In this document: positions 7,669 to 23,992 of the stretch, in pieces | Position numbering within the stretch: the first letter of the stretch is position 1 | Layout: the number at the start of each line of letters is the position of its first letter | Source of the DNA: Patescibacteria group bacterium | Lineage (GTDB): Bacteria > Patescibacteriota > Microgenomatia > JAMCZE01 | DNA length: 64,000 nucleotides | NCBI GenBank assembly: GCA_023485845.1 | Contig: JAMCZE010000010.1 | Span: 20,160 to 84,159 of the forward strand | Direction: 5' to 3' | Program-made: the position numbers and the translations under genes | The notes under the pieces: model-generated | What the model saw: only the letters and a program-made list of their open reading frames with translations | The model's database searches: none | What the model was told of the DNA's origin: nothing

Positions 7669-7962
7669 ACTTTTTTAGAAAACATTAGCGGCTCACCAAG
7701 GTGATTATTGCCATCGCCTCCTTAGGCTTGATTGCCTCCGCCTTTCTGCCATATATTGTTTCTCTACGCTGAGTTAAAATAATTGAGTGAAAGTTTGCAT
7801 TGACCAATCGGGAAAAATTGAAAGCACTTCCAAAAATGAAATTACGCTGGCCGAACTTCTCGAGGCAATAAAAAAGACCGAGGTCGGTAAACGACTGAAG
7901 GATACTTAAGCCAGGACTGGTTACCTGTGGGTCGGTATCCACTCGGCCGAATTTATTTTATC

Positions 7963-9846
7963 ATGCAAAGTCAAGTTGGTCAATTGCCATCGAAGATACC
8001 ATTTGTTGGACCGGTTTTTGCCAAGCGGTTGGAAAAATTAGGAATCTATAGCGCTGACGATCTACTGCACCATCTGCCCTTTCGCTATGACAACTTTGCC
8101 CAGGTGGCCAAAATTGCCTCTTTGCAGGAGGGGGAGACCGTCACCGTTCAGGGGAAAATTCTAGAAATTAAAAACCAATACACCCGCCGCGGTTTTGTTC
8201 TCCAGCAGGCAAAAATGGCTGACGACAGCGGCACTCTGGACGTTATTTGGTTTAACCAACCGTTTTTGACCCGAATCTTGCACACCAATGATCCGACCAG
8301 TTTGTCCGGTAAAATTGAAAAAAAAGGAAATAAGCTAATTTTGAAGTCTCCAAAGTACGAACATCTAGCTTCAAGAGAGGTGGTCTCGCGAAGCTACGAG
8401 ACCACCTCTCAGGAAATGATCCACACCGGCCGATTGGTCCCGGTCTACCCGGAGACGCAAGGTATCTCCAGCAAATGGCTGCGAAATAAGATTCATCATC
8501 TGCTGGCAACAAATCTGGACCAACGGCTCCACCAGGTTCATTTTCCTGACAGCCTGGAGCAGGCCGAGCAAGCCAGAGAGCAACTGGCTTTTGAAGAGCT
8601 GCAGGCCGCTTTTGAGAAGGCCCGAAAGCGAAAAGAAGAATGGCAGCAAAAAGCTGTCGGCCGGAAATTTAAAATTGTAGAAATCCGTGACCAACTGACA
8701 ACATTTGTTAAAAACCTTCCCTTCTCTTTAACCGGGGCCCAGAAACGAGTGATTAACGAGATTTACAAAGATCTGGCCAGGGAAGTGCCTATGAACCGGC
8801 TGCTTCAGGGTGATGTCGGCTCCGGCAAAACAGTGGTGGCCGCCCTGGCAATGCTGGCCGCCCACCTTAACGGTTTTCAATCGGCGCTGATGGCCCCCAC
8901 CGAAATTCTCGCCCAGCAGCACTACCAAACATTAACCACGCTCTTGGCACCGCTGAAAATCGGTGTCGGCCTAGCGACTGGCGCTTCTAAGGACTATGTA
9001 AATTATGACGTAATTGTCGGCACCCATGCTTTAATCGCCGACCAGTTAAAATTTAAAAACCTTGGCCTGGCGGTGATTGACGAACAACACCGCTTCGGCG
9101 TGGAGCAGCGGGGAAAGCTGGCTGCTAAGGGGAAAAATCCCCACGTTCTGACGATGACGGCCACTCCCATTCCCCGAACAGTGGCGTTAACCCTCTACGG
9201 TGACCAGGATATGTCCGTTTTGGACGAAATGCCGCCGGGACGAAAACTGGTCAAAACCTGGTTAGTTCCTCCCGGCAAACGAGACGCGGCTTACCAGTGG
9301 ATTAAGGATCAACATTCCCAAGCTTTTATTATTTGTCCGCTTATTGAGGACTCAGAAACCCTGGCCGATGTCAAAGCCGTTAAATCGGAGTATGCGCGCT
9401 TACAAAAAGAGATTTTTCCAAATCTGAAATTGGGTCTGCTTCATGGCCAAGTTAAGGACAAAGATAAAATTATCGACAGTTTTCGCCGAAAGAAGACCGA
9501 TATTCTTGTGGCCACTCCGGTCGTGGAAGTTGGGCTGGACATTCCTGACGCCACCATTATGCTCATTGAGGCGGCGGACCGTTTTGGTTTGGCCCAGTTG
9601 CATCAACTGCGCGGCCGGGTGGGGCGCGCCGGCCAACAGGCTTATTGCCTCCTATTCAGCGATAATTCCGCCGCCAGCCAACGGCTAAAGTGTTTGGAAA
9701 AAGTTAATAACGGATTGGAACTGGCGGAAATTGACTTAAAACTGCGTGGTCCAGGGCAGCGTTTCGGGGCCAGTCAGCACGGCCAATGGGAGCTAAAAAT
9801 TGCCACCCTTGCAGATTTGCAAAAATTCAGTACAATTAAAGCATGA
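7963..9846 (+). CDS. recG: ATP-dependent DNA helicase RecG
   Basis: Walker A GDVGSGKT, VIDEQHRFGV, and a helicase C-terminal region; I chose the ATG at 7963 within the tool ORF. Confidence 0.9.
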   Translation: MQSQVGQLPSKIPFVGPVFAKRLEKLGIYSADDLLHHLPFRYDNFAQVAKIASLQEGETVTVQGKILEIKNQYTRRGFVLQQAKMADDSGTLDVIWFNQPFLTRILHTNDPTSLSGKIEKKGNKLILKSPKYEHLASREVVSRSYETTSQEMIHTGRLVPVYPETQGISSKWLRNKIHHLLATNLDQRLHQVHFPDSLEQAEQAREQLAFEELQAAFEKARKRKEEWQQKAVGRKFKIVEIRDQLTTFVKNLPFSLTGAQKRVINEIYKDLAREVPMNRLLQGDVGSGKTVVAALAMLAAHLNGFQSALMAPTEILAQQHYQTLTTLLAPLKIGVGLATGASKDYVNYDVIVGTHALIADQLKFKNLGLAVIDEQHRFGVEQRGKLAAKGKNPHVLTMTATPIPRTVALTLYGDQDMSVLDEMPPGRKLVKTWLVPPGKRDAAYQWIKDQHSQAFIICPLIEDSETLADVKAVKSEYARLQKEIFPNLKLGLLHGQVKDKDKIIDSFRRKKTDILVATPVVEVGLDIPDATIMLIEAADRFGLAQLHQLRGRVGRAGQQAYCLLFSDNSAASQRLKCLEKVNNGLELAEIDLKLRGPGQRFGASQHGQWELKIATLADLQKFSTIKA

Positions 9847-10013
9847 CACCGTTACCAAAGCGAAAGCTATCGACCAGGCGGCAAGGTGACCGGCGATCGC
9901 ATTTCCGGCTAAAGTTGCCCGGATTATCTTTGTGCTCTAATTGCCACAAGCCAATTATCTCGCACCGGGCCTGTCCGCACTGTGGTTTCTATCACGGGAG
10001 AAAAGTCCGATGA
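9843..10013 (+). CDS. rpmF: 50S ribosomal protein L32
   Basis: 56 aa, MTPLPKRKLSTRRQGDRRSHFRLKLPGLSLCSNCHKPIISHRACPHCGFYHGRKVR; the Zn-ribbon CxxC...CxxC is typical of L32. Missed by the ORF track (<60 aa). Confidence 0.8.
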   Translation: MTPLPKRKLSTRRQGDRRSHFRLKLPGLSLCSNCHKPIISHRACPHCGFYHGRKVR

Positions 10014-10594
10014 AAACACCGCTTGATCCCAGACACCTGCGCCGGCGAAAGCAAGTTCAGGAGTTATTCGCTTGGGAGGCGCAATCAAAAGTCAAAAATC
10101 AAAAGTCAAAAATCAAAAGTCACGACGACGGGGTTGAAAGAACCATAAATTCGTTAGAATTAATCGACAAAATAATCAGCGAGGCGGCGCCGGAGTGGGA
10201 GATTGCCAAAATTAACCAGATTGACTTGGCCATCCTGCGGCTGGCTGTTTTTGAACTGGTGGTGGAGGCAACCGAACCGCCAAAAGTGATTATTGATGAG
10301 GCCATTGAACTGGCCAAAGAATTTGGTAACGAAGCCTCGCCTAGCTTTATCAATGGAGCGCTGGCTAAAGTGCTGGTCAGTCGGCGCCGGGCGCTGGCCA
10401 TTATCGCCAACAAACTCGGGGTGGAGACGGCAAAGCTGACTCCGGAGGCAAATTTTAAACAAGACCTAAACATCACCGACCTGGAATTGGCGGATTTGAA
10501 AAGCACCTTAGAACGTCAATTCGCCGTCTCTTTTGAAAAGGCGCCGAAGATTCAAACCGTTAATGACCTTTTGGAAATTATTGAAGAAGAATGA
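10010..10594 (+). CDS. nusB: NusB antitermination factor fused to a C-terminal acyl-carrier-protein-like domain (degenerate; Ser replaced by Asp)
   Basis: N-terminal HLRRRKQVQELFAWEAQ... is NusB-like. The C-terminal ~65 aa, LGVETAKLTPEANFKQDLNITDLELADLKSTLERQF, align to the ACP helix II region (DLGADSLDTVEL) but show TDL instead of DSL. The ORF is continuous. ATGA start overlap with rpmF. Confidence 0.65.
   Translation: MKTPLDPRHLRRRKQVQELFAWEAQSKVKNQKSKIKSHDDGVERTINSLELIDKIISEAAPEWEIAKINQIDLAILRLAVFELVVEATEPPKVIIDEAIELAKEFGNEASPSFINGALAKVLVSRRRALAIIANKLGVETAKLTPEANFKQDLNITDLELADLKSTLERQFAVSFEKAPKIQTVNDLLEIIEEE
10085..10120. repeat. TCAAAAG/TCAAAAA heptamer x5, in-frame in nusB (encodes SKVKNQKSKIKS)
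   Basis: Read directly. Confidence 0.8.
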
Positions 10595-11238
10595 TTACGA
10601 TTCCATTTAAGGACCCGCGCCTTTTGGACCAAGCTCTGACCCACCGATCATTTTTAAATGAAGACTCCAAAACCACCGTTTCCAATGAACGGCTGGAATT
10701 TTTGGGCGACAGTGTTTTGTCCCTAATCGTCTCCACCGAACTATTTGCCCGCTTTCCCAACTATCCGGAGGGGAAACTAACTTCGCTGCGCTCCGCCTTG
10801 GTGCGAACAAAAACCCTGGCAAAGCTGGCCAAAGCCTTAAACTACGGCGATGCCCTGAAAATGAGCCGGGGAGAGGAGAAAACCGGCGGGCGGGAAAATG
10901 AATCGCTCTTGGCCGACACCTTTGAAGCAGTGTTGGGCGCCATTTATCTGGACCAGGGTCTGGAAGCCGCCCGGAAGTTTTTGCAAACCCATCTCTTCCC
11001 TTTAATTGACGGGCAAACCATTTTTGACTATAAAAGCAAGCTGCAGGAAGTCACCCAACAACAGAAAAAAGTCTCCCCGATTTATAGAGTGCTGTCGGAA
11101 ACCGGCCCGGACCACGATAAGGTTTTTGTCGTGGGTGTTTATCTTTCTAGCAAGCTTTTGGCCCAAGGATCGGGCAAAAGCAAACAGGAGGCCCAACAGG
11201 AAGCCGCCCATCTTGCGCTGGAAGGACAAAAAGGATAA
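10591..11238 (+). CDS. rnc: ribonuclease III
   Basis: ERLEFLGDSVL signature and a C-terminal dsRBD. Confidence 0.9.
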   Translation: MITIPFKDPRLLDQALTHRSFLNEDSKTTVSNERLEFLGDSVLSLIVSTELFARFPNYPEGKLTSLRSALVRTKTLAKLAKALNYGDALKMSRGEEKTGGRENESLLADTFEAVLGAIYLDQGLEAARKFLQTHLFPLIDGQTIFDYKSKLQEVTQQQKKVSPIYRVLSETGPDHDKVFVVGVYLSSKLLAQGSGKSKQEAQQEAAHLALEGQKG

Positions 11239-11247
11239 AATACCCCC

Positions 11248-11481
11248 ATGGCGGTGAAATTAAGACTCACCAGAATCGGAAAAACCGGCAACGCCCAATA
11301 CCGGCTGATTGCGATTGATGAACACAAGCGGCGCGGCGGCCGGGCCATTGAAGTGCTTGGCTCTTACAACCCCCATCAGAAAGTTAAAAGTCAAAAGTTA
11401 AAAGTCAAAAGTGAAAGAATTAAATATTGGTTGTCGGTCGGGGCAAAACCTACCGAAACCGTTGCCCAGCTTCTCAAATGA
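11248..11481 (+). CDS. rpsP: 30S ribosomal protein S16
   Basis: MAVKLRLTRIGKTGNAQYRLIAIDEHKRRGGRAIEVLGSYNP; carries a heptamer-repeat insertion. Confidence 0.85.
   Translation: MAVKLRLTRIGKTGNAQYRLIAIDEHKRRGGRAIEVLGSYNPHQKVKSQKLKVKSERIKYWLSVGAKPTETVAQLLK
11384..11418. repeat. TTAAAAG/TCAAAAG heptamer array, in-frame in rpsP (QKVKSQKLKVKSE)
   Basis: Read directly. Confidence 0.8.
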
Positions 11482-11711
11482 AAAGCTTTTTAGAATATCT
11501 CGTTCAAAACATCGTTGATAAGCCAGAAGCGGTGCACGTTTCGGAAGAATCTCAGGCGGGGATGACAGTGTTAAAACTGTCTGTTGACGGCGCCGACATG
11601 GGCAAAGTGATTGGCAAAAGCGGCCGGATCATTAAAGCCATCCGCGATTTGACCCGAATTTTAGCCGTGAAGCAAAACGCCCGCGTTAACGTTGTGGTGT
11701 CGGAAGAGTAA
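11478..11711 (+). CDS. KH-domain RNA-binding protein (YlqC/UPF0109-like)
   Basis: GKVIGKSGRIIKAIRDL KH motif; its position after rpsP matches rpsP-ylqC synteny in other bacteria. Confidence 0.7.
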   Translation: MKSFLEYLVQNIVDKPEAVHVSEESQAGMTVLKLSVDGADMGKVIGKSGRIIKAIRDLTRILAVKQNARVNVVVSEE

Positions 11712-12339
11712 ATAGATCTACCGAACTAAAGGTCCCCAGCAGTTTTTTGTCTGCCTCACTGATTGTTGGCATTGATTGCCAACTGGTGACACCGTTTTGG
11801 GGAGGAAGATAATAAACAATTAGGCTCACCGTTCCCCCGGCCGGATTGTCCGCCAAATTATAGTTTAAGTCAGTTGCCCCCAGCAGTTGGGTGGCCGTCT
11901 GCACCCGGGAGACAAAATCCGTCAGACTAGTCAACTCTCCCGAAACCGACAGGCCCACCGGGATCGCCTTCACTCCCGAACCAACATCAATGTCTCCGCT
12001 GGAACTGGCAATTAGTCCCGGAGAGAAATTAATGTCCTTAAGAATCACTCCGGAAGCGGCCGCCAGATCGTTAAGGCCGGTCACCAGTCCGGAAGTCTTT
12101 TTCTCATCAGGCAAAACCGCTGTCACTCGGTCAACCTGACCCGCCAGAATCTTTTCGTCAAGCGAGTTTAAATACGTCGTGGCTTGTTTTAGCCCGGCAA
12201 CATCCTTGGCAGTCGTGGTCAGTTCTTCGTTCATTGCCAAAATGCTATTGACCTTACCGGGGAAAACAACAACGGCCGCGACCAGTTCGCTGGCGATCAG
12301 ACTACCGAGGAGCATGTTAATTATTAAATTTCGGTTCAT
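11686..12339 (-). CDS. pilO: type IV pilus assembly protein PilO-like
   Basis: N-terminal TM segment, coiled coil, and a position downstream of pilM-pilN. Confidence 0.55.
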   Translation of the reverse strand: MNRNLIINMLLGSLIASELVAAVVVFPGKVNSILAMNEELTTTAKDVAGLKQATTYLNSLDEKILAGQVDRVTAVLPDEKKTSGLVTGLNDLAAASGVILKDINFSPGLIASSSGDIDVGSGVKAIPVGLSVSGELTSLTDFVSRVQTATQLLGATDLNYNLADNPAGGTVSLIVYYLPPQNGVTSWQSMPTISEADKKLLGTFSSVDLFTLPTPQR

Positions 12340-12887
12340 AGTTTGCTTTTATCAAATTGGCCTGTTAGATCAAAATTAAAAGTGCCATCAGCGTTTAGGG
12401 TCATTGCTGTTAGCGTAACATTATTGAAAAATTTCGCGGTGGTCGGACTGGTGATTTGGTCGACATAAGCATTAAAGGCCGACTGATCCTGGCAATTCAC
12501 CTTAATGCTGACGTTGCCGTTAACACTAACCTCTTCCAGGGCATAAGTCACCCCACCGATGCTGCGAAAATCGGTTAGCTTTTTTAAGATGGCCGTAATA
12601 TCCGGCCGAGTGGTTTGCACCATCCGGATCCCCATTAGTTTGTTCTTTAATTTCACCAGTTGAGCAGCTTTGGCGGCATCGGCGGAAAATTGAGCCGCCA
12701 ATTGCTGCTTTTGGACCGATATATCAGTCAGGCGCCGATCCCAATAACTTTCAATCACCAGCAGGCTGGCCAAGGTTACCAAAAAAATTATTGACACGGA
12801 GATTGCCCCCGTCACCAACCGGCGGCGCAGAGCCGCCTCTTTTTTCGATAAAAGATTCTTAGGGGGGAGCAGATTTATTTCAATCAT
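12336..12887 (-). CDS. pilN: type IV pilus assembly protein PilN
   Basis: MIEINLLPP start, a single TM segment, coiled coil; overlaps pilM and pilO by 4 nt. Confidence 0.7.
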   Translation of the reverse strand: MIEINLLPPKNLLSKKEAALRRRLVTGAISVSIIFLVTLASLLVIESYWDRRLTDISVQKQQLAAQFSADAAKAAQLVKLKNKLMGIRMVQTTRPDITAILKKLTDFRSIGGVTYALEEVSVNGNVSIKVNCQDQSAFNAYVDQITSPTTAKFFNNVTLTAMTLNADGTFNFDLTGQFDKSKL

Positions 12888-13894
12888 GTTTGTTTTTGGG
12901 CAAGACCAACCGCCACCGTAAAAACTGCACCGCTCTCGCCAATGTCTTTTTTTTGCATATCTGTTAATCCCACACTAGCAAACGGGTTGCCAATTTGCAC
13001 CTCCATGCCCAGCGCAATGGCGGCATATTGCACCAAACCCGACAGCTGGGCCAGGCCACCGGAAAGAACGACTCTTTTAACAGGATCATTGACTTGTTTG
13101 CTTTCATAAAAGGCGAGAGCGCGTTTAATTTCGCCAATAATTAAATCAACCACCGGTTTAATGGCCGTGGCAACTTTTCCTTCGAGTTTAGTTTCATCCA
13201 AACCATAGGAACGCATATACTCCTGCGCTTGCAGTTGTTCCATCTTCAAATTTCCCGCCAAGGCGCGGGCCACCCCCGTGCCGCCGTAGCCGATTGACTG
13301 GGTCAAAACCAGGTTGCCTTGCCGGGCCACCGCAATAGTCGAGGTCTCTGCACCTAAATGCACCACCAAACTGGTGGGGGCGTTAGGATCTGACAAAAGG
13401 GACCTAATCACGGCCAGAATTTCCGTTTCCACCGCCAGAACGTCTAAGCCCGCCTGAGAAAAAATCTGCAAATAACGGTTCATCACTTCATTGGGAACCG
13501 CCACTAAGAGCACGCTCATTTTTGCGCCCGGCACGCCTGGCTCCGGTTCACTTAACACCTGGTGTTTCAAAATCACATCGTCCAGAGGCACGGGAATATA
13601 TTGTTCCGCTTGAAAGGCAATAGTGGAAGTCAGCTCCGGCTCCACCAATTGCGGCATCTCCACCACTCGGGTGTAGACCAAGGATTCCGGCAAACTGAAA
13701 ATAACCGTTTTAACCGTCGTCTTAATTTGAGCCAGCAATTTTTTAATCGCTGCCACCCGGGCGGGGTCATCCTGACCAGCAGCTGCCTGGCCCAAAGCCG
13801 CTAATTGAAATTTTCCTAACCCGACCGAAGACAATTGCACCAGCTTGATAGCAGTGGAACCAACGTCTACGCCGATGTGATTTTCCCACTTCAT
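12884..13894 (-). CDS. pilM: type IV pilus assembly protein PilM (actin-like ATPase fold)
   Basis: IGVDVGSTAIKLV N-terminus, 336 aa. Confidence 0.8.
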   Translation of the reverse strand: MKWENHIGVDVGSTAIKLVQLSSVGLGKFQLAALGQAAAGQDDPARVAAIKKLLAQIKTTVKTVIFSLPESLVYTRVVEMPQLVEPELTSTIAFQAEQYIPVPLDDVILKHQVLSEPEPGVPGAKMSVLLVAVPNEVMNRYLQIFSQAGLDVLAVETEILAVIRSLLSDPNAPTSLVVHLGAETSTIAVARQGNLVLTQSIGYGGTGVARALAGNLKMEQLQAQEYMRSYGLDETKLEGKVATAIKPVVDLIIGEIKRALAFYESKQVNDPVKRVVLSGGLAQLSGLVQYAAIALGMEVQIGNPFASVGLTDMQKKDIGESGAVFTVAVGLAQKQT

Positions 13895-13897
13895 AGT

Positions 13898-14713
13898 TTA
13901 GTAGCCAAGGTTGCCGCCGTTGAAAATAACGCTGTCAAAAACCGTCGGCAGAGTCCCGGAAATCAAAGTGGACTGCACTTTTTTGGTGACACCCCCGGAA
14001 GTGGTGGCAATAGCCGTCACTTGGTAGTTTTGCAATGACAAACCAACGGCGCTATTTCCTGAAGCAAAGCCGCAAACGGCCACGTCGGAACTGGCATACA
14101 GCGGCTTCACCCGCAAAAGCTGGTCACCATTATTAAAAGGAATTTCCGCCACTCCGGTGCAACTGCCATTATTAAACGAGTTGTCAGCACAGCCGGACGA
14201 AACACAGGCGGAACCGGGCATGGGGGTAGCAAAATTGTTCGCCGGATTGGAATTATCGGGACTGCGGTCATAAATGTAACGCGTCAGCACGTTGTTTTTG
14301 TCTATTTTAATAATTTCCAGCGCCGCGTTCGGGTTTTTCCAAAGAACCGCCAGCGATTTAACATTGGGCTGCAAGCCGGATAGATCAATCTGGTAAACAT
14401 CGTCCTGGGCCACCGCTGGCATCAAGCCATAGGAAGAGGTGTCCGCGCAAACCGTATATTGAACGCCTTTAATTCCGTTAAGCGACAGCCCGCTGGCCGC
14501 CAGGGGCGTGCAGGAATTGGAACCTTGGCTAAGTTGATTTAAACCATATTGAATCCCGGCCTCCGCCGCCGCCAGCGCTTTTGTCCCTTGGTCCACCACT
14601 GTCACTTGTTTTAGATCCGACAGGGACCGGCTGGCCACCGAAAGGCTGATTGTTAAACCCACCAACCCTAAAAGAATAGCTAAAATGGCAATTTGTCCCC
14701 GCTTTGGTTTCAT
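13898..14713 (-). CDS. hypothetical membrane-anchored secreted protein in the T4P operon (possible minor pilin/PilX-like)
   Basis: N-terminal hydrophobic anchor with no canonical prepilin cleavage motif; operon context only. Confidence 0.4.
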   Translation of the reverse strand: MKPKRGQIAILAILLGLVGLTISLSVASRSLSDLKQVTVVDQGTKALAAAEAGIQYGLNQLSQGSNSCTPLAASGLSLNGIKGVQYTVCADTSSYGLMPAVAQDDVYQIDLSGLQPNVKSLAVLWKNPNAALEIIKIDKNNVLTRYIYDRSPDNSNPANNFATPMPGSACVSSGCADNSFNNGSCTGVAEIPFNNGDQLLRVKPLYASSDVAVCGFASGNSAVGLSLQNYQVTAIATTSGGVTKKVQSTLISGTLPTVFDSVIFNGGNLGY

Positions 14714-14725
14714 ATATTCATCATA

Positions 14726-15280
14726 TCATTTTGTCCGCAATGTGATCGAGTCGGATAATTTGACTGAGGCACAAAAATCTGAGCGGACAAGACCAGGCAA
14801 CTGCTGGGCCCAAACACTGACGGTCACCGGCACGTCATCCGGCACCTTGCCGGCCGGGGAAATCACTAAACCGGGCTGGCAGCTGCTGCCCGTGCCGCCG
14901 CAAGCCGCCGTCCCACCAGCGGAACAATCCAAGATGGCCGTGTTAGCAGAATTAAGCACCCCCACCCCTGATTTTGTCACCACCCCATTGCCATCCTGCG
15001 AGTAGGTCACCGTGTTGCCGTTAGAGCACGTGGCATCAACGGCATCATCGGAAATTTGCAGCAAGGTGGCGGTGGAATAAACACATTTGGCCTGGCGAAT
15101 TTGGGCTGCCACGTCCTGCAAAATCAAACTAGCGTTCTCCCGGACATCATTTTCAATTGTTGCCTGGTTGGCATTACGCACTGTTTGAATGAGAAAATCG
15201 GAGCCGCCAACCATGATGACCCCAAGAATTGCCATGGTGATCATAATCTCGATTAAAGTGAACCCTCGATTTTTTTTCAT
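14726..15280 (-). CDS. prepilin-type N-terminal cleavage/methylation domain protein (pseudopilin/minor pilin)
   Basis: KNRGFTLIEIMITMAILGVI prepilin motif; internal start chosen at MKKNRG. Confidence 0.7.
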   Translation of the reverse strand: MKKNRGFTLIEIMITMAILGVIMVGGSDFLIQTVRNANQATIENDVRENASLILQDVAAQIRQAKCVYSTATLLQISDDAVDATCSNGNTVTYSQDGNGVVTKSGVGVLNSANTAILDCSAGGTAACGGTGSSCQPGLVISPAGKVPDDVPVTVSVWAQQLPGLVRSDFCASVKLSDSITLRTK

Positions 15281-15741
15281 TAATACGAATAAAAACTGCT
15301 GTCCAACTCCTGCACCCGGCAAATGCCGCCAACATCCGGCCAATTAACAAACACCTGGGCCAACACTGCTCCGCTATTAATCGTTAGCTTAATATAGCGG
15401 GACAAAGTTAAATTTCCCGTCACCGGTTGGCCGGAAACGCAAGCGGGGGATTGGGGAGAGGAAATTGGGCAGCCGCCGCCCAGGACCGTTAATGTCAATC
15501 CGTCGTCGGCAAAATAGTAGCATTTGTTATTGGCCTTGTTATAAAGCGTTTGGAAACCGTTAACCTGATAGTAATTGCGCAGCTGTTCCATGGCTTGCTG
15601 GGCAGCTGCCACTGACTGGTTTTTTAGCTTGGCGGAGCCGTTAAGGGAAATCACCGCCAGCATTAAGGAGATCACGGCCGCCGTGATTATAGCCAAAATC
15701 ATTATGGCCACCATGGTTTCGATAATAGTAAAGGCGCGCAT
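15280..15741 (-). CDS. prepilin-type N-terminal cleavage/methylation domain protein (pseudopilin/minor pilin)
   Basis: MRAFTIIETMVAIMIL motif. Confidence 0.7.
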   Translation of the reverse strand: MRAFTIIETMVAIMILAIITAAVISLMLAVISLNGSAKLKNQSVAAAQQAMEQLRNYYQVNGFQTLYNKANNKCYYFADDGLTLTVLGGGCPISSPQSPACVSGQPVTGNLTLSRYIKLTINSGAVLAQVFVNWPDVGGICRVQELDSSFYSY

Positions 15742-16412
15742 AGGGCAGCAAGAACAACACCGGCAACCAAAAATGGTCCCAAAGCTATTGTGTCAGAAAA
15801 ACGAACTTTCTTCAACACCAAGAGCGCCAAGGCCCAGGCCCCGCCCAAAACAAAAGCGATCCAAAAGGCAATCAAGGTTTGCGGCCAACCCATCACCCAG
15901 CCGATGAGAAAAGCCAAATAGATGTCTCCTTCACCCATGCCTTTACCACGGGTAATCCTGACGATAAACCAAAAAATCAGCCCGGAAAGTATTCCAGTCA
16001 ATAAATTTGGTACTAAATTTAAAATTAGGGCAAGGAACGAGCCCATGACGATCATTTCCATCGGGATTAGTCCATAAATTAAATCGGAGAAGAAAATGAC
16101 AATAAACACCGCGGCTAAACCAAGTAGGGCCGGCTGGAAACCAATAACGGCAAAAGATGCCGCCGTAACTAGCTCCACCACCGGATATTGCCAGCTAATT
16201 TTTTTATGACAATACCGGCAGTTGCCCTTTAACAGTAAAAACGAGAGGAGGGGAACATTATCAGTCCAGGAAAGCTGGTGTCGGCAGCGCGGACAAAAAC
16301 TTCTCCCTTGCCACCACTTCGGTGCCTTCGGCGTATTCAGCCGGTAGATTAAAACGTTCAAAAAGCTGCCAATGATTAGCCCCAGGAAAAATAAAAAAAT
16401 CACAACTTGCAT
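15702..16412 (-). CDS. pilD: prepilin peptidase (A24 family)
   Basis: N-terminal CPRC...CRYC zinc-binding motif plus a polytopic membrane domain. Confidence 0.8.
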   Translation of the reverse strand: MQVVIFLFFLGLIIGSFLNVLIYRLNTPKAPKWWQGRSFCPRCRHQLSWTDNVPLLSFLLLKGNCRYCHKKISWQYPVVELVTAASFAVIGFQPALLGLAAVFIVIFFSDLIYGLIPMEMIVMGSFLALILNLVPNLLTGILSGLIFWFIVRITRGKGMGEGDIYLAFLIGWVMGWPQTLIAFWIAFVLGGAWALALLVLKKVRFSDTIALGPFLVAGVVLAALCAPLLLSKPWWP

Positions 16413-16441
16413 TTGTAATTAATTCAACCAATAATTATTGT

Positions 16442-16609
16442 ATGTCAGACACAAAAATTTTGCAGGCGATTTTAAACGGACAAGCAGCAATCCGGGAAGT
16501 GATTGAAAAACTAGAGAAAAGGGTCGATGCCGGATTCCAAAGAGTCGATGAGCGGTTTGACAAAATGGAGAAGAGAATAGCCTCGCTGGGAGAGACCCTG
16601 CGAGCCTAA
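16442..16609 (+). CDS. small coiled-coil protein, paralog family member 2 (55 aa)
   Basis: MSDTKILQAILNGQAAIREVIEKLEKRVDAGFQRVDERFDKMEKRIASLGETLRA; shares the VD.GF..V.ERFD motif with 4800-5126. Missed by the ORF track. Confidence 0.35.
   Translation: MSDTKILQAILNGQAAIREVIEKLEKRVDAGFQRVDERFDKMEKRIASLGETLRA
16581..16603. repeat. 23-bp direct repeat, copy 1 (cctcgctgggagagaccctgcga), at the 3' end of the small ORF
   Basis: 22/23 identical to 17226-17248; the pair brackets def. Confidence 0.7.
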
Positions 16610-17178
16610 GAAAACAGCGGTCTATCCCTTAAAACTTCTTTTAACGGATCGTCAGTAACAATTTCCAGACTTCCCGGCTGTGCAACGTCAATGTTTAGTT
16701 CACCGTGCAAGTGGCGTTCTTCATGCTGCCAGAGTCTTGCCAGAAAACCATCAACTTCTTTGGTTATCAGATTTCCCTTAAAATCAGTCCACTTCATGGT
16801 TATTCGCTCCGGCCGCCTGACATCACCCCAAATGATTCCGGAGCTTAGGCATAATTCCCGATAGTAGTTATACGTGTCGGATGAGGCGGTGATTCCAGGG
16901 TTAATGTAGCCTTGTACTTCATCATCAAGAAAAGTAACGAATACCGATTTACTTATGCCAATTTGCGGGGCAGCCAGGCCACGGCCGTAGCCCACCAGCT
17001 TGCGGTAGTGAACCAAAACATCACCAAGATTTCGACCGATTTCCACCCCCTCGGCTAAAGTTGCTTCTTGCGTCTCCTGCCGCAGGATCGGATCGCCGGC
17101 ATAGCGAAACTGTGGAAACTCCTTAAAAACTCTTTGAAAGTTTTGGATTGTTCTATCGATCGATTCAGCGCGCGTCAT
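16606..17178 (-). CDS. def: peptide deformylase
   Basis: GLAAPQIG (motif I), ELCLS (motif II, Cys ligand), QHEERHLHG (HExxH motif III). Confidence 0.7.
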   Translation of the reverse strand: MTRAESIDRTIQNFQRVFKEFPQFRYAGDPILRQETQEATLAEGVEIGRNLGDVLVHYRKLVGYGRGLAAPQIGISKSVFVTFLDDEVQGYINPGITASSDTYNYYRELCLSSGIIWGDVRRPERITMKWTDFKGNLITKEVDGFLARLWQHEERHLHGELNIDVAQPGSLEIVTDDPLKEVLRDRPLFS

Positions 17179-17225
17179 TAGACTTATTTTACCATAGGAA
17201 TCATAGTTTAGCACTCGTCTTGTAG

Positions 17226-17248
17226 CCTCACTGGGAGAGACCCTGCGA
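17226..17248. repeat. 23-bp direct repeat, copy 2 (cctcactgggagagaccctgcga)
   Basis: Continues in frame as ...SLGETLRSSK*, a duplicated 3' end of the small ORF at 16442-16609. Confidence 0.7.
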
Positions 17249-17306
17249 AGCAGCAAATGAGCAAATGGGTTTTTACGCCCGGCAGGTTGTCTGGTAAACT
17301 TATAGG

Positions 17307-19154
17307 GTGTTAGACTTTCTCAAAAATTTTTTGATCTTAACGCCGGATTTTGGGAGGAGCGATGTTTGGCACTTCGACTTCGCCTTGAAATTTTTTCTCT
17401 CAGAAGCGCTGAAGAACGGCTACCTGCCGTTTTGGTCCAAAAATATCGGCACCGGGTTTCCCCTTTTTGCCGAGGGCCAAATCGGAATGCTGATGCCCGT
17501 CAATCTTTTTCTTTTTAAATTTTTCGACGCGGTCACCGCCTTCAATCTTGGACTCATCTCTATCTTTCTTACGGTTTTTATCGGCTCGTACCTGTTCGGA
17601 AAGGCTAGGGGACTGGCAAAACTTTCCGGTCTCTTTCTGGCCGTTATTTTCAGTTTCTCCGGGGTGTTTGTGACCCAAATGACCCATTTTAATCTGATCC
17701 AAGCCGCGGCCTTTTTGCCCTGGGAATTCTTCGCCGCCGAGGAATTTATAAAAAGCAACAAACTTCGTTATTTATCACTTTTTGGTACGGTGTTAGCCCT
17801 GCAACTTTATGCCGGCTTTCCCCAGGCGGCAATGATTTCCCTGATCGGGGTGGGGCTTTATGTTTTTTGGCGAAAACCCCGGGCCATTATCGGCATCGGC
17901 GCGGCAACAATGCTGGGGGCGGCGCTGGCTGCCCCGCAACTGCTTGCCTCCTGGCAGATTGCCCAGCTGTCGTTTCGCTCCAGCATTCCCGTGGCGGAAA
18001 TGGCCCGGTTTCCCTTTAATCCCAAAAGTTTTTTGACCTTCCTTAATCCCTATCTTTTAGGCGATCCAAGAATCGGGACCTATCCGCCGTTTTCCGCTGA
18101 CTGGGGAATTTTCTGGGAATCCACCGGCTATTTTGGCATTTTGCCACTGTTGCTGATTCCCCTTGCTTTCAAAAAAACACCAGACAAATCGATCTTAGCA
18201 ATTCTTGTCACTGCTTTTATTTTAATGCTGGGCCGCTTCACCCCGCTCTTTTTTGTTTTCCAGCTGCCGACGCTGGATTTTTTCCGCGTTCCGGCCCGTT
18301 TTATTCTTCTCTTTGTCTGGGCGCTGGCTGTCCTGGCCGCCAGCGGGTTTAATCACCTAAAAAATAAGGGATTACAAATTTTTATTCTGCTATTTTCCGC
18401 GGTCAATTTGGCTTTTTTTGCCGGCACCTATCACGGCGTCACATTGGCCGCCCAAAGTTGGCTGGCGCCGCCGGCCAATGTCCAAACCCTCTCCCGGGAT
18501 CATTCCTGGTTTCGCATCTACAGCATTGGGGCCGCTGACCCTTGGAACCAGGTTTTTTATAAAAGCGGCTGGAAAGACGTTGCCGCCTACAAACCGTTTC
18601 GCAATTTTCTGGACCCGAACCAAAACCTTTATTGGGATGTCCCTTCGGCCCAGTTCTACACCGCCGTCGCCAGCCGACGCCAAACACTGTTTGATGCCTT
18701 GATGGCTGCCGGCCCGTCGACCAAACTGCTTTCCCTGGCCGGAGTAAAATATTTTATTAAACCGGATTCGATCGCCACCTTATCAGCCAAACCCCATGCC
18801 TATTTAACCAGCCACTATGAGGTGGTTTCCGACCTGGAAAGCCTGGTGCAAAGACTAACCGACGCTTCCGACAGCGCCGCGATTGTGGAAGAGAAAGTCC
18901 CGGTCACGCCGTCAATCGCCGATTGCGGCCAGGCCCAAGTGATTAAAAACGAAGATTTGGAAGTGGATATTAAAATCTTTGCCAGCCGAGACTGTCTATT
19001 AATTTTATCGGACAGCTATTATCCCGGCTGGGAAGCCCGAATTGACGGCCGGCCAACAAAAATCTACCCCGCCAATCTTAACCAACGCGCAATTCTGGTT
19101 ATGTCTGGAAGTCATCTGGTTATCTTCTCGTTTAATCCTTTAAAAATCCTTTAG
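17307..19154 (+). CDS. YfhO-family polytopic membrane protein (GT-C-like glycosyltransferase)
   Basis: 615 aa; the N-terminal polytopic region is YfhO-like and is followed by a C-terminal soluble domain. Confidence 0.6.
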   Translation: MLDFLKNFLILTPDFGRSDVWHFDFALKFFLSEALKNGYLPFWSKNIGTGFPLFAEGQIGMLMPVNLFLFKFFDAVTAFNLGLISIFLTVFIGSYLFGKARGLAKLSGLFLAVIFSFSGVFVTQMTHFNLIQAAAFLPWEFFAAEEFIKSNKLRYLSLFGTVLALQLYAGFPQAAMISLIGVGLYVFWRKPRAIIGIGAATMLGAALAAPQLLASWQIAQLSFRSSIPVAEMARFPFNPKSFLTFLNPYLLGDPRIGTYPPFSADWGIFWESTGYFGILPLLLIPLAFKKTPDKSILAILVTAFILMLGRFTPLFFVFQLPTLDFFRVPARFILLFVWALAVLAASGFNHLKNKGLQIFILLFSAVNLAFFAGTYHGVTLAAQSWLAPPANVQTLSRDHSWFRIYSIGAADPWNQVFYKSGWKDVAAYKPFRNFLDPNQNLYWDVPSAQFYTAVASRRQTLFDALMAAGPSTKLLSLAGVKYFIKPDSIATLSAKPHAYLTSHYEVVSDLESLVQRLTDASDSAAIVEEKVPVTPSIADCGQAQVIKNEDLEVDIKIFASRDCLLILSDSYYPGWEARIDGRPTKIYPANLNQRAILVMSGSHLVIFSFNPLKIL

Positions 19155-20720
19155 GCTGGTTTTCGGGGCGGGGGAGGGGGAAACGGCCGGGTTGGGAGCG
19201 CCGTAGCCATAGCCATAGAAAAGCAGCGCCTGATCGGCTAAGGTCAGGTGAGCGGGCAGGCCGGATGGCGAGCCGGCAGAAAGCTCACCCCCGGGGAAGC
19301 CGGTCACGCCGGCATAAGCGATGGGCACCCTGTCAAGATTAGCCTCGAGAAAACCGGCAATCGAAGCGGTTTTGGGCAAAGAAATGTCCAATTGAGGCCG
19401 GACAGATTTAAGATAGCGAAATCGGTTGTCTGGCCCGATCATGTTGGGCATAATCAACTCCACATCCGGCCGAAAATGGTCCACATAGCGGGCATAGAAC
19501 GTGGCAAAAGTCAGGGTGTCTCCCTGGAGAAAAATCACCGCGTTTTTCGGCGCCGAGCGCAGCAGGTTTGCTCCCAAATTTAGAGCCAAGAAATTGCCGC
19601 TTTGGTTGACCAGCGGATAATGGTTAATAATTAATAGAACGACGTACCAGCCGGCGATAATTACCAAAAGCGGGGGGCGCAGCAGCTTCAGGCCAAAGGC
19701 AATAAAGACCGCCCAGAAAATGTTGGGCAAAAGATAAAACCGTTCGGTCACCGCCAGACCCATGATGCTGTAGTCATAAAGCGGGAAATTCGCGTAGGAA
19801 AGGAAAAAGATTCCGCTGGTAATAAAACCCAGTAGGAGAAAAATTGCCAGCCGGCGCTGTCTTAACAAGAGCCAAATCACCCCCAGTGCTCCCAAAAATA
19901 TTCCCAGCCAGAGGAAATCGTCGACCAAAAAACGAAAGTAGGTCGTCACCTGGGCGACTTTGTCGGAAAGAAGGGCCAGGGCCGGGTCCTGCCCGACGGT
20001 CGGGGAAAAACTGCCGTAGTCCGCCCGAAACATCAGCCGCGCCAGCGAGTCCAGATTGTCCGGAAAACTCCACATCAGCGGCCCGACCCGGGTTTTGGCC
20101 ACCACTACCACATATAGATAAGGAATAAGGCCCACCAGGGCAGCCGGAACAAACTTCCATTGCCACTTTCTTTGTTGCCACCACCAATAAAGCAAGGCCG
20201 GCACCAATAAGATAATCGTCAGATGGTGGAAGAAACCAAAACCAAAGAAAAGCGCCGCCCACACCCATTGCCGGCGCAACGCGAAATAAATAATCAGCAG
20301 GGCAAATAAATCGTTAAGGGCAAAAACTTCGGCCACCAAGCCATAAAGCCAAAAAGTGTAGGAAAACGCCAGAATCAGACTGCCGGCCAGGGCAGTTAGT
20401 CGGTTCTTGGTTAATTGGAAAATTAATAAGAAAAGGACGCTGACGGCGGCAGCTTGGGTCAGGGCGGAAAAAAGATTCACTCGCCAAGCCACCGAACCCC
20501 ATGGTAAGAGGGTAAAAAAATGCGCCACAAAAGTGTAGAGAGGATAGCCGGGAGGGTGGGGGATGCCCAGAGTATAAGCGGCAGTCACCAATTCTCCCGA
20601 GTCAGCCTGTGGCGCCACCGACGGGGCGATCATGAGGAAATAAACCAGCAGCGTGGCCAGTCCAACGCAAACTGCCCAAATTAATGGGCAGTTTAAAGAA
20701 AAGCTCTTCCTCTTAATCAT
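19140..20720 (-). CDS. DUF2723/TMEM260-like polytopic membrane protein (GT-C fold; putative protein glycosyltransferase)
   Basis: N-terminal SVAPQADSGELVTAAYTLGIPHPPGYPLY motif characteristic of DUF2723. Confidence 0.6.
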   Translation of the reverse strand: MIKRKSFSLNCPLIWAVCVGLATLLVYFLMIAPSVAPQADSGELVTAAYTLGIPHPPGYPLYTFVAHFFTLLPWGSVAWRVNLFSALTQAAAVSVLFLLIFQLTKNRLTALAGSLILAFSYTFWLYGLVAEVFALNDLFALLIIYFALRRQWVWAALFFGFGFFHHLTIILLVPALLYWWWQQRKWQWKFVPAALVGLIPYLYVVVVAKTRVGPLMWSFPDNLDSLARLMFRADYGSFSPTVGQDPALALLSDKVAQVTTYFRFLVDDFLWLGIFLGALGVIWLLLRQRRLAIFLLLGFITSGIFFLSYANFPLYDYSIMGLAVTERFYLLPNIFWAVFIAFGLKLLRPPLLVIIAGWYVVLLIINHYPLVNQSGNFLALNLGANLLRSAPKNAVIFLQGDTLTFATFYARYVDHFRPDVELIMPNMIGPDNRFRYLKSVRPQLDISLPKTASIAGFLEANLDRVPIAYAGVTGFPGGELSAGSPSGLPAHLTLADQALLFYGYGYGAPNPAVSPSPAPKTSLKDF

Positions 20721-20734
20721 GAGATTCTCTCTTG

Positions 20735-21178: not shown

Positions 21179-21245
21179 TTTTCACCTCCTTTTCAGAATT
21201 CTTTCTCATAATTAGCTTGACGGATTTTTTCACCCCTGTCAAGCC

Positions 21246-23506: not shown

Positions 23507-23578
23507 AAAAAACAATTTAAAATTTACAATTTGAAATTTGAACTAAAACTTTTCAATTTGAAATATTTAATTTTCAAT
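23507..23578. repeat. ATTTGAA-type heptamer array, the left arm of a hairpin element flanking the four-helix-bundle ORF
   Basis: aaatttacaatttgaaatttgaactaaaa here is the inverse complement of a segment in 23943-23992. Confidence 0.7.
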
Positions 23579-23942: not shown

Positions 23943-23992
23943 TTCAAATTTTATATTTAGTTCAAATTGTAAATTTCAAATTTCAAATTAAT
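23943..23992. repeat. TTCAAAT-type heptamer array (right arm, inverse of the left arm)
   Basis: Read directly. Confidence 0.7.

What the first reader, a model, noticed from the sequence alone, without database searches (positions are those of the whole stretch)
10010..10594. NusB fused to a vestigial acyl-carrier-protein domain with Ser replaced by Asp
The C-terminal ~65 aa align to ACP helix II (DLGADSLDxxEL) but read DLNITDLELADL, so the phosphopantetheine attachment Ser is replaced by Asp. In many bacteria acpP sits directly upstream of rnc, and rpmF heads the fab cluster. Here the order is rpmF, then nusB-ACP-like, then rnc. This looks like a relic of the fab/acpP cluster in an organism that may have lost fatty-acid synthesis, with the ACP remnant captured as a C-terminal domain of NusB, possibly as a protein-interaction module.
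Basis: partly seen in the sequence, partly recalled or inferred. Interest (0 to 1): 0.6.

Follow-up and report, generated by a model that had tools for sequence, protein, structure and literature searches.

The report
NusB fused to serine-less ACP
In this tiny-genome (Microgenomates/CPR) bacterium the transcription factor NusB carries a well-conserved copy of acyl carrier protein that has lost the serine needed to carry fatty acids. The same serine-less protein is a separate gene wedged between nusB and rnc in related genomes, so an old lipid-synthesis protein appears to have been kept for a new job beside NusB.

Summary
ORF 10010-10594 (+) encodes 194 aa. Residues 1-122 are NusB (Pfam E 8e-24). 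Residues about 125-194 are a true AcpP homologue: Pfam PP-binding is above threshold, and a family profile hits Aquifex AcpP at E 1e-20. The AF2 model superposes on solved ACPs at 1.3-2.2 Å. Asp157 lies where the phosphopantetheine-bearing Ser36 should be.

The domain is not decaying. About 80 fused homologues exist (39-63% identity). For the one informative pair, dN is 0.10 while dS is saturated. The domain stays acidic (mean pI about 4.4).

The main new result is that the same serine-less ACP-like protein ("AcpL", motif DLNAxxLEIADL) also exists as a 72-98 aa standalone gene. In all 9 distinct standalone loci examined it lies directly after nusB, and directly before rnc wherever the sequence extends that far. 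At least 4 independent fusions to NusB occurred. Other Microgenomates have recG-rpmF-nusB-rnc with no AcpL.

The gene order mirrors Bacillus fapR-plsX-fabD-fabG-acpA-rnc and E. coli rpmF-plsX-fab-acpP.

The most likely function is inferred, not shown: a cofactor-free acidic partner of NusB in rRNA antitermination or ribosome biogenesis. I found no published description.

The parts
7927..9846 (+). recG, the first gene of the conserved block recG-rpmF-nusB(-acpL)-rnc-rpsP-KH. Its stop overlaps the rpmF start (ATGA).
   Evidence: ORF. The same position is held by RecG-domain genes in L001, L002, L014, L016, L019 and L021. phmmer matches are.
9843..10013 (+). rpmF (ribosomal protein L32, 56 aa). 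Its stop TGA 10011-10013 overlaps the nusB-acpL start.
   Evidence: Pfam Ribosomal_L32p E 1.3e-19; sequence.
10010..10594 (+). nusB-acpL fusion gene (194 aa plus stop).
   Evidence: It is 100% identical to P0001, which NCBI names 'phosphopantetheine-binding protein [Patescibacteria group bacterium]'.
10010..10375 (+). NusB domain (residues 1-122).
   Evidence: PF01029 E 8.3e-24 and TIGR01951 89.4 bits, above its cut-off. The AF2 model matches NusB structures 1EYV, 1TZT and 3D3B. Mean pairwise identity of the core among fusions is 66%.
10083..10122 (+). Perfect 14-nt tandem repeat (2.9 copies) inside the poorly conserved Lys-rich insert of NusB (residues 26-47).
   Evidence: Mean pairwise identity of the insert is 21%.
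10382..10591 (+). AcpL domain (residues 125-194), a serine-less homologue of AcpP joined to the last NusB helix by about 2 residues.
   Evidence: PF00550 26.4 bits. Profile against PDB: 2EHS at E 1e-20. Foldseek matches ACP structures at rmsd 1.3-2.2 Å. BLASTP against E. coli AcpP gives E 5e-9. AF2 helices at 125-136, 157-171 and 184-193.
10463..10498 (+). Helix-II motif DLNITDLELADL (D152-L163). It is the counterpart of DLGADSLDTVEL. Asp157 (10478-10480) replaces the phosphopantetheine-bearing Ser, and Thr156 replaces Asp35.
   Evidence: Alignments; family statistics.
10591..11238 (+). rnc (RNase III, 215 aa). Its start overlaps the fusion's stop (ATGA).
   Evidence: Pfam Ribonucleas_3_3 E 3e-40 and dsrm E 5e-18.
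11248..11481 (+). rpsP (ribosomal protein S16), the next conserved gene of the block.
   Evidence: ORF. Ribosomal_S16 genes hold the same position in related loci. phmmer matches are.
11478..11711 (+). KH-domain (KhpA-like) gene, the last conserved gene of the block. The start at 11478 is my reading of the ORF that begins at 11427.
   Evidence: ORF. KH_KhpA-B genes lie at this position in L001, L002, L014, L016 and L019. The window's own copy was not scanned against Pfam.

Best explanation
What it is (shown): the C-terminal 70 residues are a direct descendant of the type-II fatty-acid-synthase acyl carrier protein AcpP. This descendant has lost the serine that carries the 4'-phosphopantetheine arm, and it has been retained in a subset of Microgenomates (CPR/Patescibacteria). 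I call it AcpL.

Where it sits (shown): its gene occupies the slot that acpA/acpP holds in ordinary bacteria, at the end of the fab cluster and just upstream of rnc. Here the fab genes are absent from that slot and nusB lies immediately upstream. In some lineages nusB and acpL are separate, overlapping genes. In others, including this window, loss of the nusB stop codon has fused them. This fusion happened several times independently.

How it most likely works (inferred): AcpL is a cofactor-free, strongly acidic small helical module that binds NusB 1:1. In this protein it is held rigidly on NusB's last helix by a 2-residue linker. It would serve as an extra subunit of the NusB-S10-BoxA rRNA antitermination and ribosome-biogenesis machinery. 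Its retained acidic helix II, the classical ACP 'recognition helix', would dock a basic partner such as S10, S4, RNA polymerase or the co-encoded RNase III. It does not carry acyl groups.
For: Homology and fold.

No modifiable residue. The Ser36 position in 80 fused members is D55, E9, N4, Q4, P3, K2, T1, S1. In 92 standalone members it is P25, K17, D10, N10, E9, S7, R5, H2. The preceding position is S/T/D/Q/G, which looks like a helix N-cap and is not an invariant hydroxyl.

Maintained by selection. About 80 fused clusters span 39-63% identity. Mean pairwise identity of the ACPL domain is 46%, against 21% for the variable NusB insert. For L007 against L008, dN is 0.10 and dS about 3; dS is saturated in all other pairs, with dN 0.29-0.57. 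Core and helix-II positions D, L, N, A, L, E, I, A, D, L are 80-100% conserved. Mean pI is 4.3-4.4.

Link to NusB. In all 9 distinct standalone loci acpL starts within a few bases of, or overlapping, the nusB stop. It is followed by rnc wherever the sequence extends. Fused and standalone families match at hhalign probability 99.9%, E 5e-33. The fusions P0080, P0111 and P0075 have standalone proteins as nearest relatives, so there were at least 4 fusion events. No AcpL-RNase III fusion appeared among the hits.

Rigid docking. The AF2 model has pLDDT 91.4 and pTM 0.85, with only 2 non-helical residues between the domains. An independent long-linker fusion still gives pTM 0.74.

Positional relic. 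This rests on B. subtilis fapR-plsX-fabD-fabG-acpA (PMC1950310), acpA-rnc-smc-ftsY (PMC4838370) and E. coli rpmF-plsX-fabHDG-acpP. The named high-scoring canonical ACPs come from Firmicutes and Chloroflexota.

Precedents. A Ppant-free ACP kept as a protein scaffold after FASII loss is known from Plasmodium mACP (PMC8547962). ACP binding to unrelated proteins such as SpoT is documented (PMC3340395, abstract).
Against: - No experiment or structure shows that AcpL touches NusB. The contact is inferred from adjacency, recurrent fusion and AF2 pTM values, and I could not inspect coordinates or PAE.
- Adjacent genes with ATGA overlaps fuse easily, so fusion alone is weaker evidence than fusion of unlinked genes would be.
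- AcpL is equally adjacent to rnc.
- Close Microgenomates relatives do without AcpL altogether (L001, L002), so it is dispensable for NusB function in some lineages.
- A few members carry Ser at the canonical position (P0327, P0051, P0188, P0206, P0231, P0266).
- Absence of a phosphopantetheinyl transferase was checked only in this 64-kb window.
Confidence: 0.6

Rival explanations
1. AcpL's working partner is RNase III, or another ribosome-biogenesis protein encoded downstream, rather than NusB. Under this view the NusB fusion is a by-product of gene order.
For: acpL abuts rnc in every locus that extends that far, often with overlapping stop and start codons. acpA-rnc co-transcription is ancient (PMC4838370). 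Adjacent overlapping genes fuse easily.
Against: Fusion was seen only with NusB, at least 4 times. No AcpL-RNase III fusion appeared among the best hits. The main fused clade has trimmed the linker to about 2 residues, and AF2 predicts a rigid two-domain body with pTM 0.85.
Confidence: 0.15
2. It is a neutral relic. The ACP remnant has no function of its own and is carried along because it lies inside a tightly packed, translationally coupled operon.
For: Some close relatives lack it entirely. The helix II-III loop and helix III region are poorly conserved, and shortened by 2 residues in the main fused clade.
Against: dN 0.10 against saturated dS. The hydrophobic core and helix-II motif are conserved across sequences that are only 29-42% identical overall. 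The acidic character is kept. The ACP fold is predicted with confidence. CPR genomes are streamlined and shed useless DNA.
Confidence: 0.1
3. It is still a carrier protein. A neighbouring hydroxyl (Thr156) or another residue would be modified, for example to shuttle scavenged fatty acids.
For: Position -1 is Thr or Ser in 90% of the fused proteins, and a few members have Ser at the canonical site. CPR bacteria must handle scavenged lipids.
Against: In standalone members position -1 is S/T in only 58%; otherwise it is D, Q, G or E. The canonical position is P, K, D, N, E and others. So no hydroxyl is conserved at either site. The residue pattern fits a helix N-cap. The protein fails every NCBIfam AcpP cut-off. 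No PPTase or acyl-ACP enzyme lies in the window. Microgenomates are reported to lack fatty-acid synthesis (PMC7143001).
Confidence: 0.05
4. It is an artefact. Under this view a sequencing or assembly frameshift joined two separate genes in this contig.
For: Split and fused forms differ by very little: in L014 the nusB stop and the acpL start are 1 nt apart. One locus (L010) does look frameshifted.
Against: About 80 independent 90%-identity clusters from NCBI, JGI, ENA and Logan assemblies show the same in-frame fusion with a shared, shortened linker. An identical protein is deposited at NCBI (P0001).
Confidence: 0.01

Closest known systems
AcpP / AcpA, the acyl carrier protein of type-II fatty-acid synthesis (PF00550, TIGR00517; e.g. 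Aquifex 2EHS, E. coli 1ACP)
   Same: Full-length sequence homology: profile E 1e-20, and 34% identity to E. coli AcpP. Same fold (rmsd 1.3-2.2 Å), acidic pI, and conserved helix-I, helix-II and helix-IV core. Same genomic slot upstream of rnc as B. subtilis acpA.
   Different: The phosphopantetheine-bearing Ser is replaced (Asp157), and that position varies across the family. Gly33 is Asn. The helix II-III loop is 2 residues shorter, and helix III is not predicted in the window's protein. Scores fall below all AcpP equivalog cut-offs. No fab genes are nearby. It is fused to NusB.
Plasmodium falciparum mitochondrial ACP (mACP), a Ppant-free ACP that stabilises Isd11-Nfs1 (Falekun et al. 2021, PMC8547962)
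   Same: An ACP that lost its modified Ser in a setting without FASII, yet is retained and acts as a protein-binding scaffold independent of the prosthetic group. This is the best functional analogy.
   Different: It is eukaryotic and organellar, with a different partner (an LYR protein in Fe-S cluster biogenesis). The loss of Ser was independent. The partner is experimentally proven there and only inferred here.
NusB (PF01029, TIGR01951), the rRNA and lambda-N antitermination factor that pairs with S10/NusE on BoxA RNA (3D3B, 3R2C)
   Same: The N-terminal 122 residues meet the NusB models and fold. It is the only nusB in a conserved ribosome-related block.
   Different: Characterised NusB proteins are single-domain (about 115-145 aa). 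None of the solved structures returned has an appended domain. Short single-domain NusB also exists in sister Microgenomates.
RsmB/Sun, a protein with a NusB-like N-terminal domain fused to another module (an rRNA methyltransferase)
   Same: It is a precedent for the NusB fold serving as the N-terminal module of a larger ribosome-biogenesis protein. Weak NCBIfam RsmB hits cover the NusB part only.
   Different: The C-terminal partner there is an enzyme (an m5C methyltransferase), not an ACP-like domain. All RsmB scores are far below cut-off (26 against 319 bits).
Mitochondrial ACP modules on ribosome-assembly intermediates (e.g. mt-ACP in trypanosome assemblies 6SGA and 7AOI; the MALSU1-L0R8F8-mtACP module)
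   Same: An ACP used as a structural subunit in ribosome biogenesis. These chains appear among the profile's PDB hits. Their functional role is from my own knowledge.
   Different: Those ACPs keep the Ser and Ppant arm, which inserts into an LYR protein. No LYR protein or NusB is involved there. This is an analogy only.

Membership tests
NusB (PF01029 / TIGR01951) | Sequence match above the curated thresholds | tested here: met
   PF01029 84.9 bits against 23.1; TIGR01951 89.4 bits against 88.35.
NusB (PF01029 / TIGR01951) | All-helical NusB fold | tested here: met
   The AF2 model (pLDDT 91.4) matches M. tuberculosis, T. maritima and E. coli NusB at TM 0.62-0.72 normalised to target.
NusB (PF01029 / TIGR01951) | Binds S10/NusE and BoxA RNA and supports antitermination | not testable with these tools
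   No biochemical data, and no rRNA leader in the window was examined.
Acyl carrier protein AcpP (PF00550 / TIGR00517) | Sequence homology to the PP-binding / AcpP family | tested here: met
   PF00550 23.3 and 26.4 bits against 20.8. Profile against PDB AcpP E 1e-20. BLASTP against E. coli AcpP E 5e-9.
Acyl carrier protein AcpP (PF00550 / TIGR00517) | Score above the NCBIfam equivalog cut-off (a functional AcpP) | tested here: not met
   TIGR00517 scores 36.7-39.9 bits against 70.45. All other AcpP models are also below cut-off.
Acyl carrier protein AcpP (PF00550 / TIGR00517) | Conserved Ser of the D-S-L motif at the N-terminus of helix II, the 4'-phosphopantetheine attachment site | tested here: not met
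   Asp157 lies opposite Ser36. The position varies across 172 family members, with Ser in 8.
Acyl carrier protein AcpP (PF00550 / TIGR00517) | Small helical-bundle ACP fold | tested here: met
   Foldseek gives rmsd 1.3-2.2 Å over 65-75 residues to many ACP structures. Helix III is not predicted in the window's protein but is predicted in P0111.
Acyl carrier protein AcpP (PF00550 / TIGR00517) | Works with a phosphopantetheinyl transferase and FASII enzymes encoded in the genome | tested here: inconclusive
   No Fab or ACPS domain was found in the 50 largest ORFs of the 64-kb window. The rest of the genome is not available. The literature reports no fatty-acid synthesis in Microgenomates (PMC7143001).
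Ppant-free scaffold ACPs (Plasmodium mACP type) | ACP homologue without the modified Ser, retained under selection | tested here: met
Ppant-free scaffold ACPs (Plasmodium mACP type) | Binds and stabilises a defined partner protein without the prosthetic group | not testable with these tools
   The partner (NusB) is inferred from conserved adjacency, at least 4 fusions and AF2 pTM 0.85 and 0.74. There is no direct binding evidence.
nusB-linked serine-less ACP-like family ('AcpL', defined here) | Helix-II motif D-[LF]-N-[AL]-x-x-[LI]-E-[IVL]-[AST]-D-L, with no conserved Ser | tested here: met
   The window has DLNITDLELADL. Fused and standalone profiles match at hhalign probability 99.9%.
nusB-linked serine-less ACP-like family ('AcpL', defined here) | Encoded immediately 3' of nusB (fused or separate) and 5' of rnc, within recG-rpmF-nusB-acpL-rnc-rpsP | tested here: met
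   Seen in the window and in 18 of the 20 other loci fetched through AcpL-related queries. L006 is a chance match, and L001 and L002 were fetched through short NusB proteins and lack acpL.

The most novel reading that the evidence does not exclude
AcpL is a previously unrecognised, ACP-derived Nus-type factor. It would be an obligate subunit of the NusB-S10 rRNA antitermination and processing complex in a large branch of Microgenomates, recruited from the fatty-acid synthase after that pathway was lost. It might take over the bridging role that other accessory factors (such as SuhB in E. coli) play elsewhere, or physically couple antitermination to RNase III cleavage of the nascent rRNA.
Probability: 0.3. 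Interest if true: 0.75.

Novelty: new variant of a known kind. Interest (0 to 1): 0.55.

Why it matters
First, it gives a bacterial example, spanning a large branch of Microgenomates, of an acyl carrier protein surviving the loss of fatty-acid synthesis by taking on a cofactor-independent job. Until now this is best documented for apicomplexan mitochondria.

Second, it points to an unexpected partner. NusB and rRNA antitermination in CPR bacteria have not been studied experimentally, and CPR ribosome biogenesis is known to be unusual.

Third, recurrent fusion of two neighbouring genes makes a simple, directly testable prediction: a 1:1 NusB-AcpL complex. It also offers a natural single-chain version for structural work.

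Fourth, there is a practical annotation issue. These proteins are currently auto-annotated as 'phosphopantetheine-binding protein' or 'acyl carrier protein'. That label could wrongly suggest lipid or polyketide capacity in metabolic reconstructions of CPR genomes.

Tried and rejected
- Exact look-up of the window's protein in the contig index found nothing on record, so context came from homologues instead.
- The word-index search with the 69-aa C-terminal domain alone returned nothing. It was replaced by an exhaustive HMMER profile search and a profile of standalone members.
- With a tighter alignment, the single pattern DLNATDLE gave only 3 genome loci and 6 metagenome loci. One of these (L006, Stieleria) is a chance match.
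- Cluster look-up gave no organism names for ten standalone members. The taxonomic spread therefore rests on a few named entries: Microgenomates group, Candidatus Microgenomates, Candidatus Beckwithbacteria, and Patescibacteria group.
- One dN/dS script timed out and was rewritten. dS is saturated for all but one pair, so only one usable omega estimate exists.
- Promoter and terminator scans around the locus showed nothing informative.
- A register shift that would place Thr156 at the Ser position was considered and rejected. It would break the L-x-x-[IV]-x-L core pattern, and position -1 is not a conserved hydroxyl in standalone members.
- Literature searches for any NusB-ACP link found nothing relevant.
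Full report
**1. What is in the sequence**

The ORF runs from ATG 10010 to TGA 10592-10594 on the + strand and encodes 194 aa. The ORF lister offers an upstream TTG at 9941. However, about 80 homologues all begin MKTxLDPRH, which fixes the start at 10010.

The gene is packed with its neighbours. The recG stop overlaps the rpmF start, the rpmF stop overlaps this gene's start, and this gene's stop overlaps the rnc start. Each overlap is an ATGA.

- Pfam places NusB (PF01029) at residues 34-121 (E 8.3e-24).
- Pfam places PP-binding (PF00550) at residues 129-187: 23.3 bits, or 26.4 bits for the domain alone, against a gathering score of 20.8.
- NCBIfam's nusB equivalog is just met (89.4 against 88.35 bits).
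- Every AcpP model scores 25-49 bits, below its cut-off of 65-106.

**2. The C-terminal domain is a real AcpP homologue without the serine**

BLASTP against E. coli AcpP (taken from NC_000913) gives 34% identity over 68 residues at E 5e-9. DLNITDLELADL lies opposite DLGADSLDTVEL.

A profile built from 44 C-terminal domains of fused homologues hits Aquifex AcpP (2EHS) at E 1e-20 across its whole length. More than 100 other ACP chains follow. The register is the same, and the helix II-III loop shows a 2-residue deletion. So Asp157 (codon 10478-10480) replaces Ser36 and Thr156 replaces Asp35.

An AlphaFold2 model built on 73 fused homologues has pLDDT 91.4 and pTM 0.85. Its N-terminal part matches NusB crystal structures. 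Its C-terminal part superposes on apo-, holo- and acyl-ACPs at 1.3-2.2 Å. No solved chain returned covers both parts.

**3. It is conserved, not decaying**

The first protein search returned about 80 clusters of 182-225 aa covering the full length at 39-63% identity. All named ones are Microgenomates or Patescibacteria. Many single-domain NusB proteins of 114-135 aa were also returned.

Mean pairwise identity among the fusions:

| Region | Identity |
|---|---|
| NusB core | 66% |
| ACP-like domain | 46% |
| Lys-rich NusB insert (residues 26-47) | 21% |

For the only pair close enough to be informative (L007 and L008), the ACP-like domain has dN 0.10 against dS about 3. In all other pairs dS is saturated while dN is 0.29-0.57.

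The domain remains strongly acidic. Mean pI is 4.4 in fused forms and 4.3 in standalone forms. Short NusB proteins average 8.4.

**4. The serine position is free to vary**

I compared 80 fused and 92 standalone members.

| Position | Fused (80) | Standalone (92) |
|---|---|---|
| Former Ser36 | D55, E9, N4, Q4, P3, K2, T1, S1 | P25, K17, D10, N10, E9, S7, R5, H2 |
| Preceding position (-1) | T/S in 90% | S40, D19, T13, Q8, G5, E4 |

The -1 spectrum is that of a helix N-cap, not of a catalytic or modified residue. By contrast D1, L2, N3, A4, L7, E8, I9, A10, D11 and L12 of the motif are 80-100% conserved. No hydroxyl is conserved at either candidate site, which argues strongly against phosphopantetheinylation. 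Asp is therefore not a specific 'phosphomimetic' replacement. It is only the commonest residue in the main fused clade.

**5.

An exhaustive HMMER search of 1.84 billion representatives with the domain profile found three kinds of hit:
- canonical AcpPs;
- tandem-ACP proteins;
- dozens of standalone 72-98 aa proteins with the same serine-less motif (DLNASPLEIADL, DLNATDLEIADL, DLNAQDLEIADL and others).

The fused and standalone sets match at hhalign probability 99.9%, E 5e-33.

I looked up nine distinct standalone loci. In every one the gene lies directly after nusB, typically overlapping it by a few bases. In L014 the gap is 1 nt. It lies directly before rnc wherever the contig extends. The invariant block is recG-rpmF-nusB-acpL-rnc-rpsP-KH. 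One of these loci is from Candidatus Beckwithbacteria.

Two other Microgenomates contigs carry recG-rpmF-nusB-rnc-rpsP-KH with nothing between nusB and rnc. Three states therefore exist: absent, split and fused.

Nearest-neighbour analysis shows one large fused clade. In addition, at least three fused proteins have standalone proteins as closest relatives: P0080 with P0277, P0111 with P0226, and P0075 with P0250. These three also have longer linkers. That makes at least four independent fusions. No fusion of the ACP-like domain to RNase III was seen among the hits.

**6. Origin**

- In B. subtilis the fatty-acid operon is fapR-plsX-fabD-fabG-acpA (PMC1950310).
- In B. subtilis acpA is also co-transcribed with rnc, smc and ftsY (PMC4838370).
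- From my own knowledge of that genome, recG lies just upstream of fapR, and rpsP and the KH gene ylqC lie a few genes downstream of ftsY.
- In E. coli rpmF heads plsX-fabH-fabD-fabG-acpP-fabF.

The Microgenomates block looks like this ancestral neighbourhood with the fab enzymes deleted and the carrier protein left behind. The named canonical ACPs that score best against the standalone profile come from Firmicutes and Chloroflexota.

Loss of fatty-acid synthesis is consistent but not proven for this genome. None of the 50 largest ORFs of the window has a Fab or PPTase domain. A complete Microgenomates genome is reported to lack the pathway, 'like most CPR bacteria' (PMC7143001).

**7. How it probably works**

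Shown:
- homology to AcpP;
- loss of the attachment site;
- purifying selection;
- retained acidity and helix-II motif;
- invariant adjacency to nusB;
- repeated fusion to NusB only;
- a confident two-domain model with a 2-residue linker (pTM 0.85);
- pTM 0.74 for an independent long-linker fusion.

Inferred: AcpL is a cofactor-free partner of NusB, and the pair acts in rRNA antitermination or ribosome biogenesis. The surrounding genes all relate to this process (L32, RNase III, S16, a KhpA-like KH protein). The acidic helix II would serve as a docking surface for a basic partner.

Precedents exist for ACP acting as a protein-binding subunit:
- Plasmodium mACP lacks the Ppant group, is essential, and stabilises Isd11-Nfs1 in a mitochondrion without FASII (PMC8547962).
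- E. coli ACP binds SpoT and other unrelated proteins (PMC3340395, abstract).
- Mitochondrial ACPs sit on ribosome-assembly intermediates. Such chains appear among the PDB hits; their role is from my own knowledge.

I put about 0.9 on the evolutionary and structural description and about 0.45 on the NusB-partner mechanism. The overall figure is 0.6.

**8. Rivals**

- **RNase III or another downstream product is the true partner (0.15).** Adjacency is equal on both sides. But fusions go only to NusB, and the linker has been trimmed to rigidity.
- **Neutral relic (0.1).** Some relatives lack it. But selection and conservation argue against this.
- **Still a carrier using Thr156 or an occasional Ser (0.05).** No conserved hydroxyl exists and no PPTase was seen.
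- **Assembly artefact (0.01).** It is excluded by about 80 independent clusters.

**9. Novelty**

The proteins are in public databases. They carry automatic names ('phosphopantetheine-binding protein', 'acyl carrier protein', 'N utilization substance protein B-like') and precomputed Pfam architectures.

Three full-text searches found no paper that describes any of the following:
- a NusB-ACP fusion;
- a serine-less ACP family in CPR bacteria;
- a link between ACP and Nus factors.

The components and the general principle (a Ppant-free ACP kept as a scaffold) are known. The partner, the lineage and the recurrent fusion are new. I rate it a new variant of a known kind, of moderate interest (0.55). 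It is surprising to specialists in CPR biology and antitermination, and it is directly testable. It is not a new kind of system.

**10. Limits**

- I could not inspect model coordinates or PAE.
- I could not search the rest of this genome.
- I could not place most sequences taxonomically, so whether AcpL occurs outside Microgenomates is unknown.
- The order of gains and losses is not resolved.

Noticed in passing
window 10083-10122: A perfect 14-nt tandem repeat (AATCAAAAGTCAAA, 2.9 copies) encodes part of a Lys-rich insert (KVKNQKSKIKS) between NusB helices 1 and 2. The insert is the least conserved part of the protein (21% identity), yet similar K-rich strings recur in some relatives (P0002, P0077, P0079). 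It may be a slippage-prone, length-variable loop.
   Followed up: partly
window 7927-11711: There is a chain of 4-nt ATGA stop/start overlaps: recG/rpmF, rpmF/nusB-acpL, nusB-acpL/rnc, and probably rpsP/KH. This suggests translational coupling through the whole block.
   Followed up: partly
window 28273-29511 (+): A 413-aa protein combines a PolyA_pol head domain (residues 35-170, like a CCA-adding or poly(A) polymerase) with a C-terminal nucleoside diphosphate kinase domain (residues 274-404). This is an unusual fusion.
   Followed up: no
window 23577-23942 (-): A gene of the '23S rRNA-intervening sequence protein' family (PF05635) sits between two T2SSE-type ATPase genes of a type IV pilus cluster. 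That cluster also includes PilM/PilO, prepilin peptidase, T2SSF and several N_methyl pilins at 11689-25688.
   Followed up: no
window 35442-42005 (+): Two large proteins (705 and 1293 aa) carry repeated Laminin_G_3 / concanavalin-like lectin domains. They are probably surface adhesins of an episymbiont.
   Followed up: no
window 33421-34120 (+): A HEPN-domain protein (132 aa) is followed by an overlapping 102-aa ORF. This may be a HEPN/nucleotidyltransferase toxin-antitoxin pair. A tyrosine recombinase/integrase lies at 50347-51234 (-).
   Followed up: no
proteins P0134, P0141, P0184, P0252, P0261 and P0149, P0155, P0166, P0240: Other ACP-like proteins without the canonical Ser turned up in the exhaustive search. 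Some are tandem arrays of 3-4 domains with the motif DLG[VI]DTVKQAE[IVM]FA (Thr in place of Ser). Others are two-domain proteins with DLGA[ND]PSD[VI]YFLM. They are unrelated to NusB.
   Followed up: no
L004 and L005 (GTDB contigs CAZRUW010000002.1 and CAZSSJ010000003.1): The record titles say 'uncultured Gammaproteobacteria bacterium', but the loci carry the Microgenomates-type recG-rpmF-nusB·acpL-rnc-rpsP block. Their proteins are 52-100% identical to Microgenomates fusion domains. The MAG labels are probably wrong.
   Followed up: no
L010 (VFSW01429155.1) 1-483: Here nusB-acpL is broken into two frames, with the ACP-like part truncated. This is either an assembly frameshift or a genuine pseudogene.
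   Followed up: no
L019/L020 4001-4240 (P0297, P0217): Some standalone AcpL proteins have diverged so far that the precomputed Pfam PP-binding hit is lost, yet they keep the nusB-acpL-rnc position. Annotation pipelines will therefore call them hypothetical proteins.
   Followed up: partly
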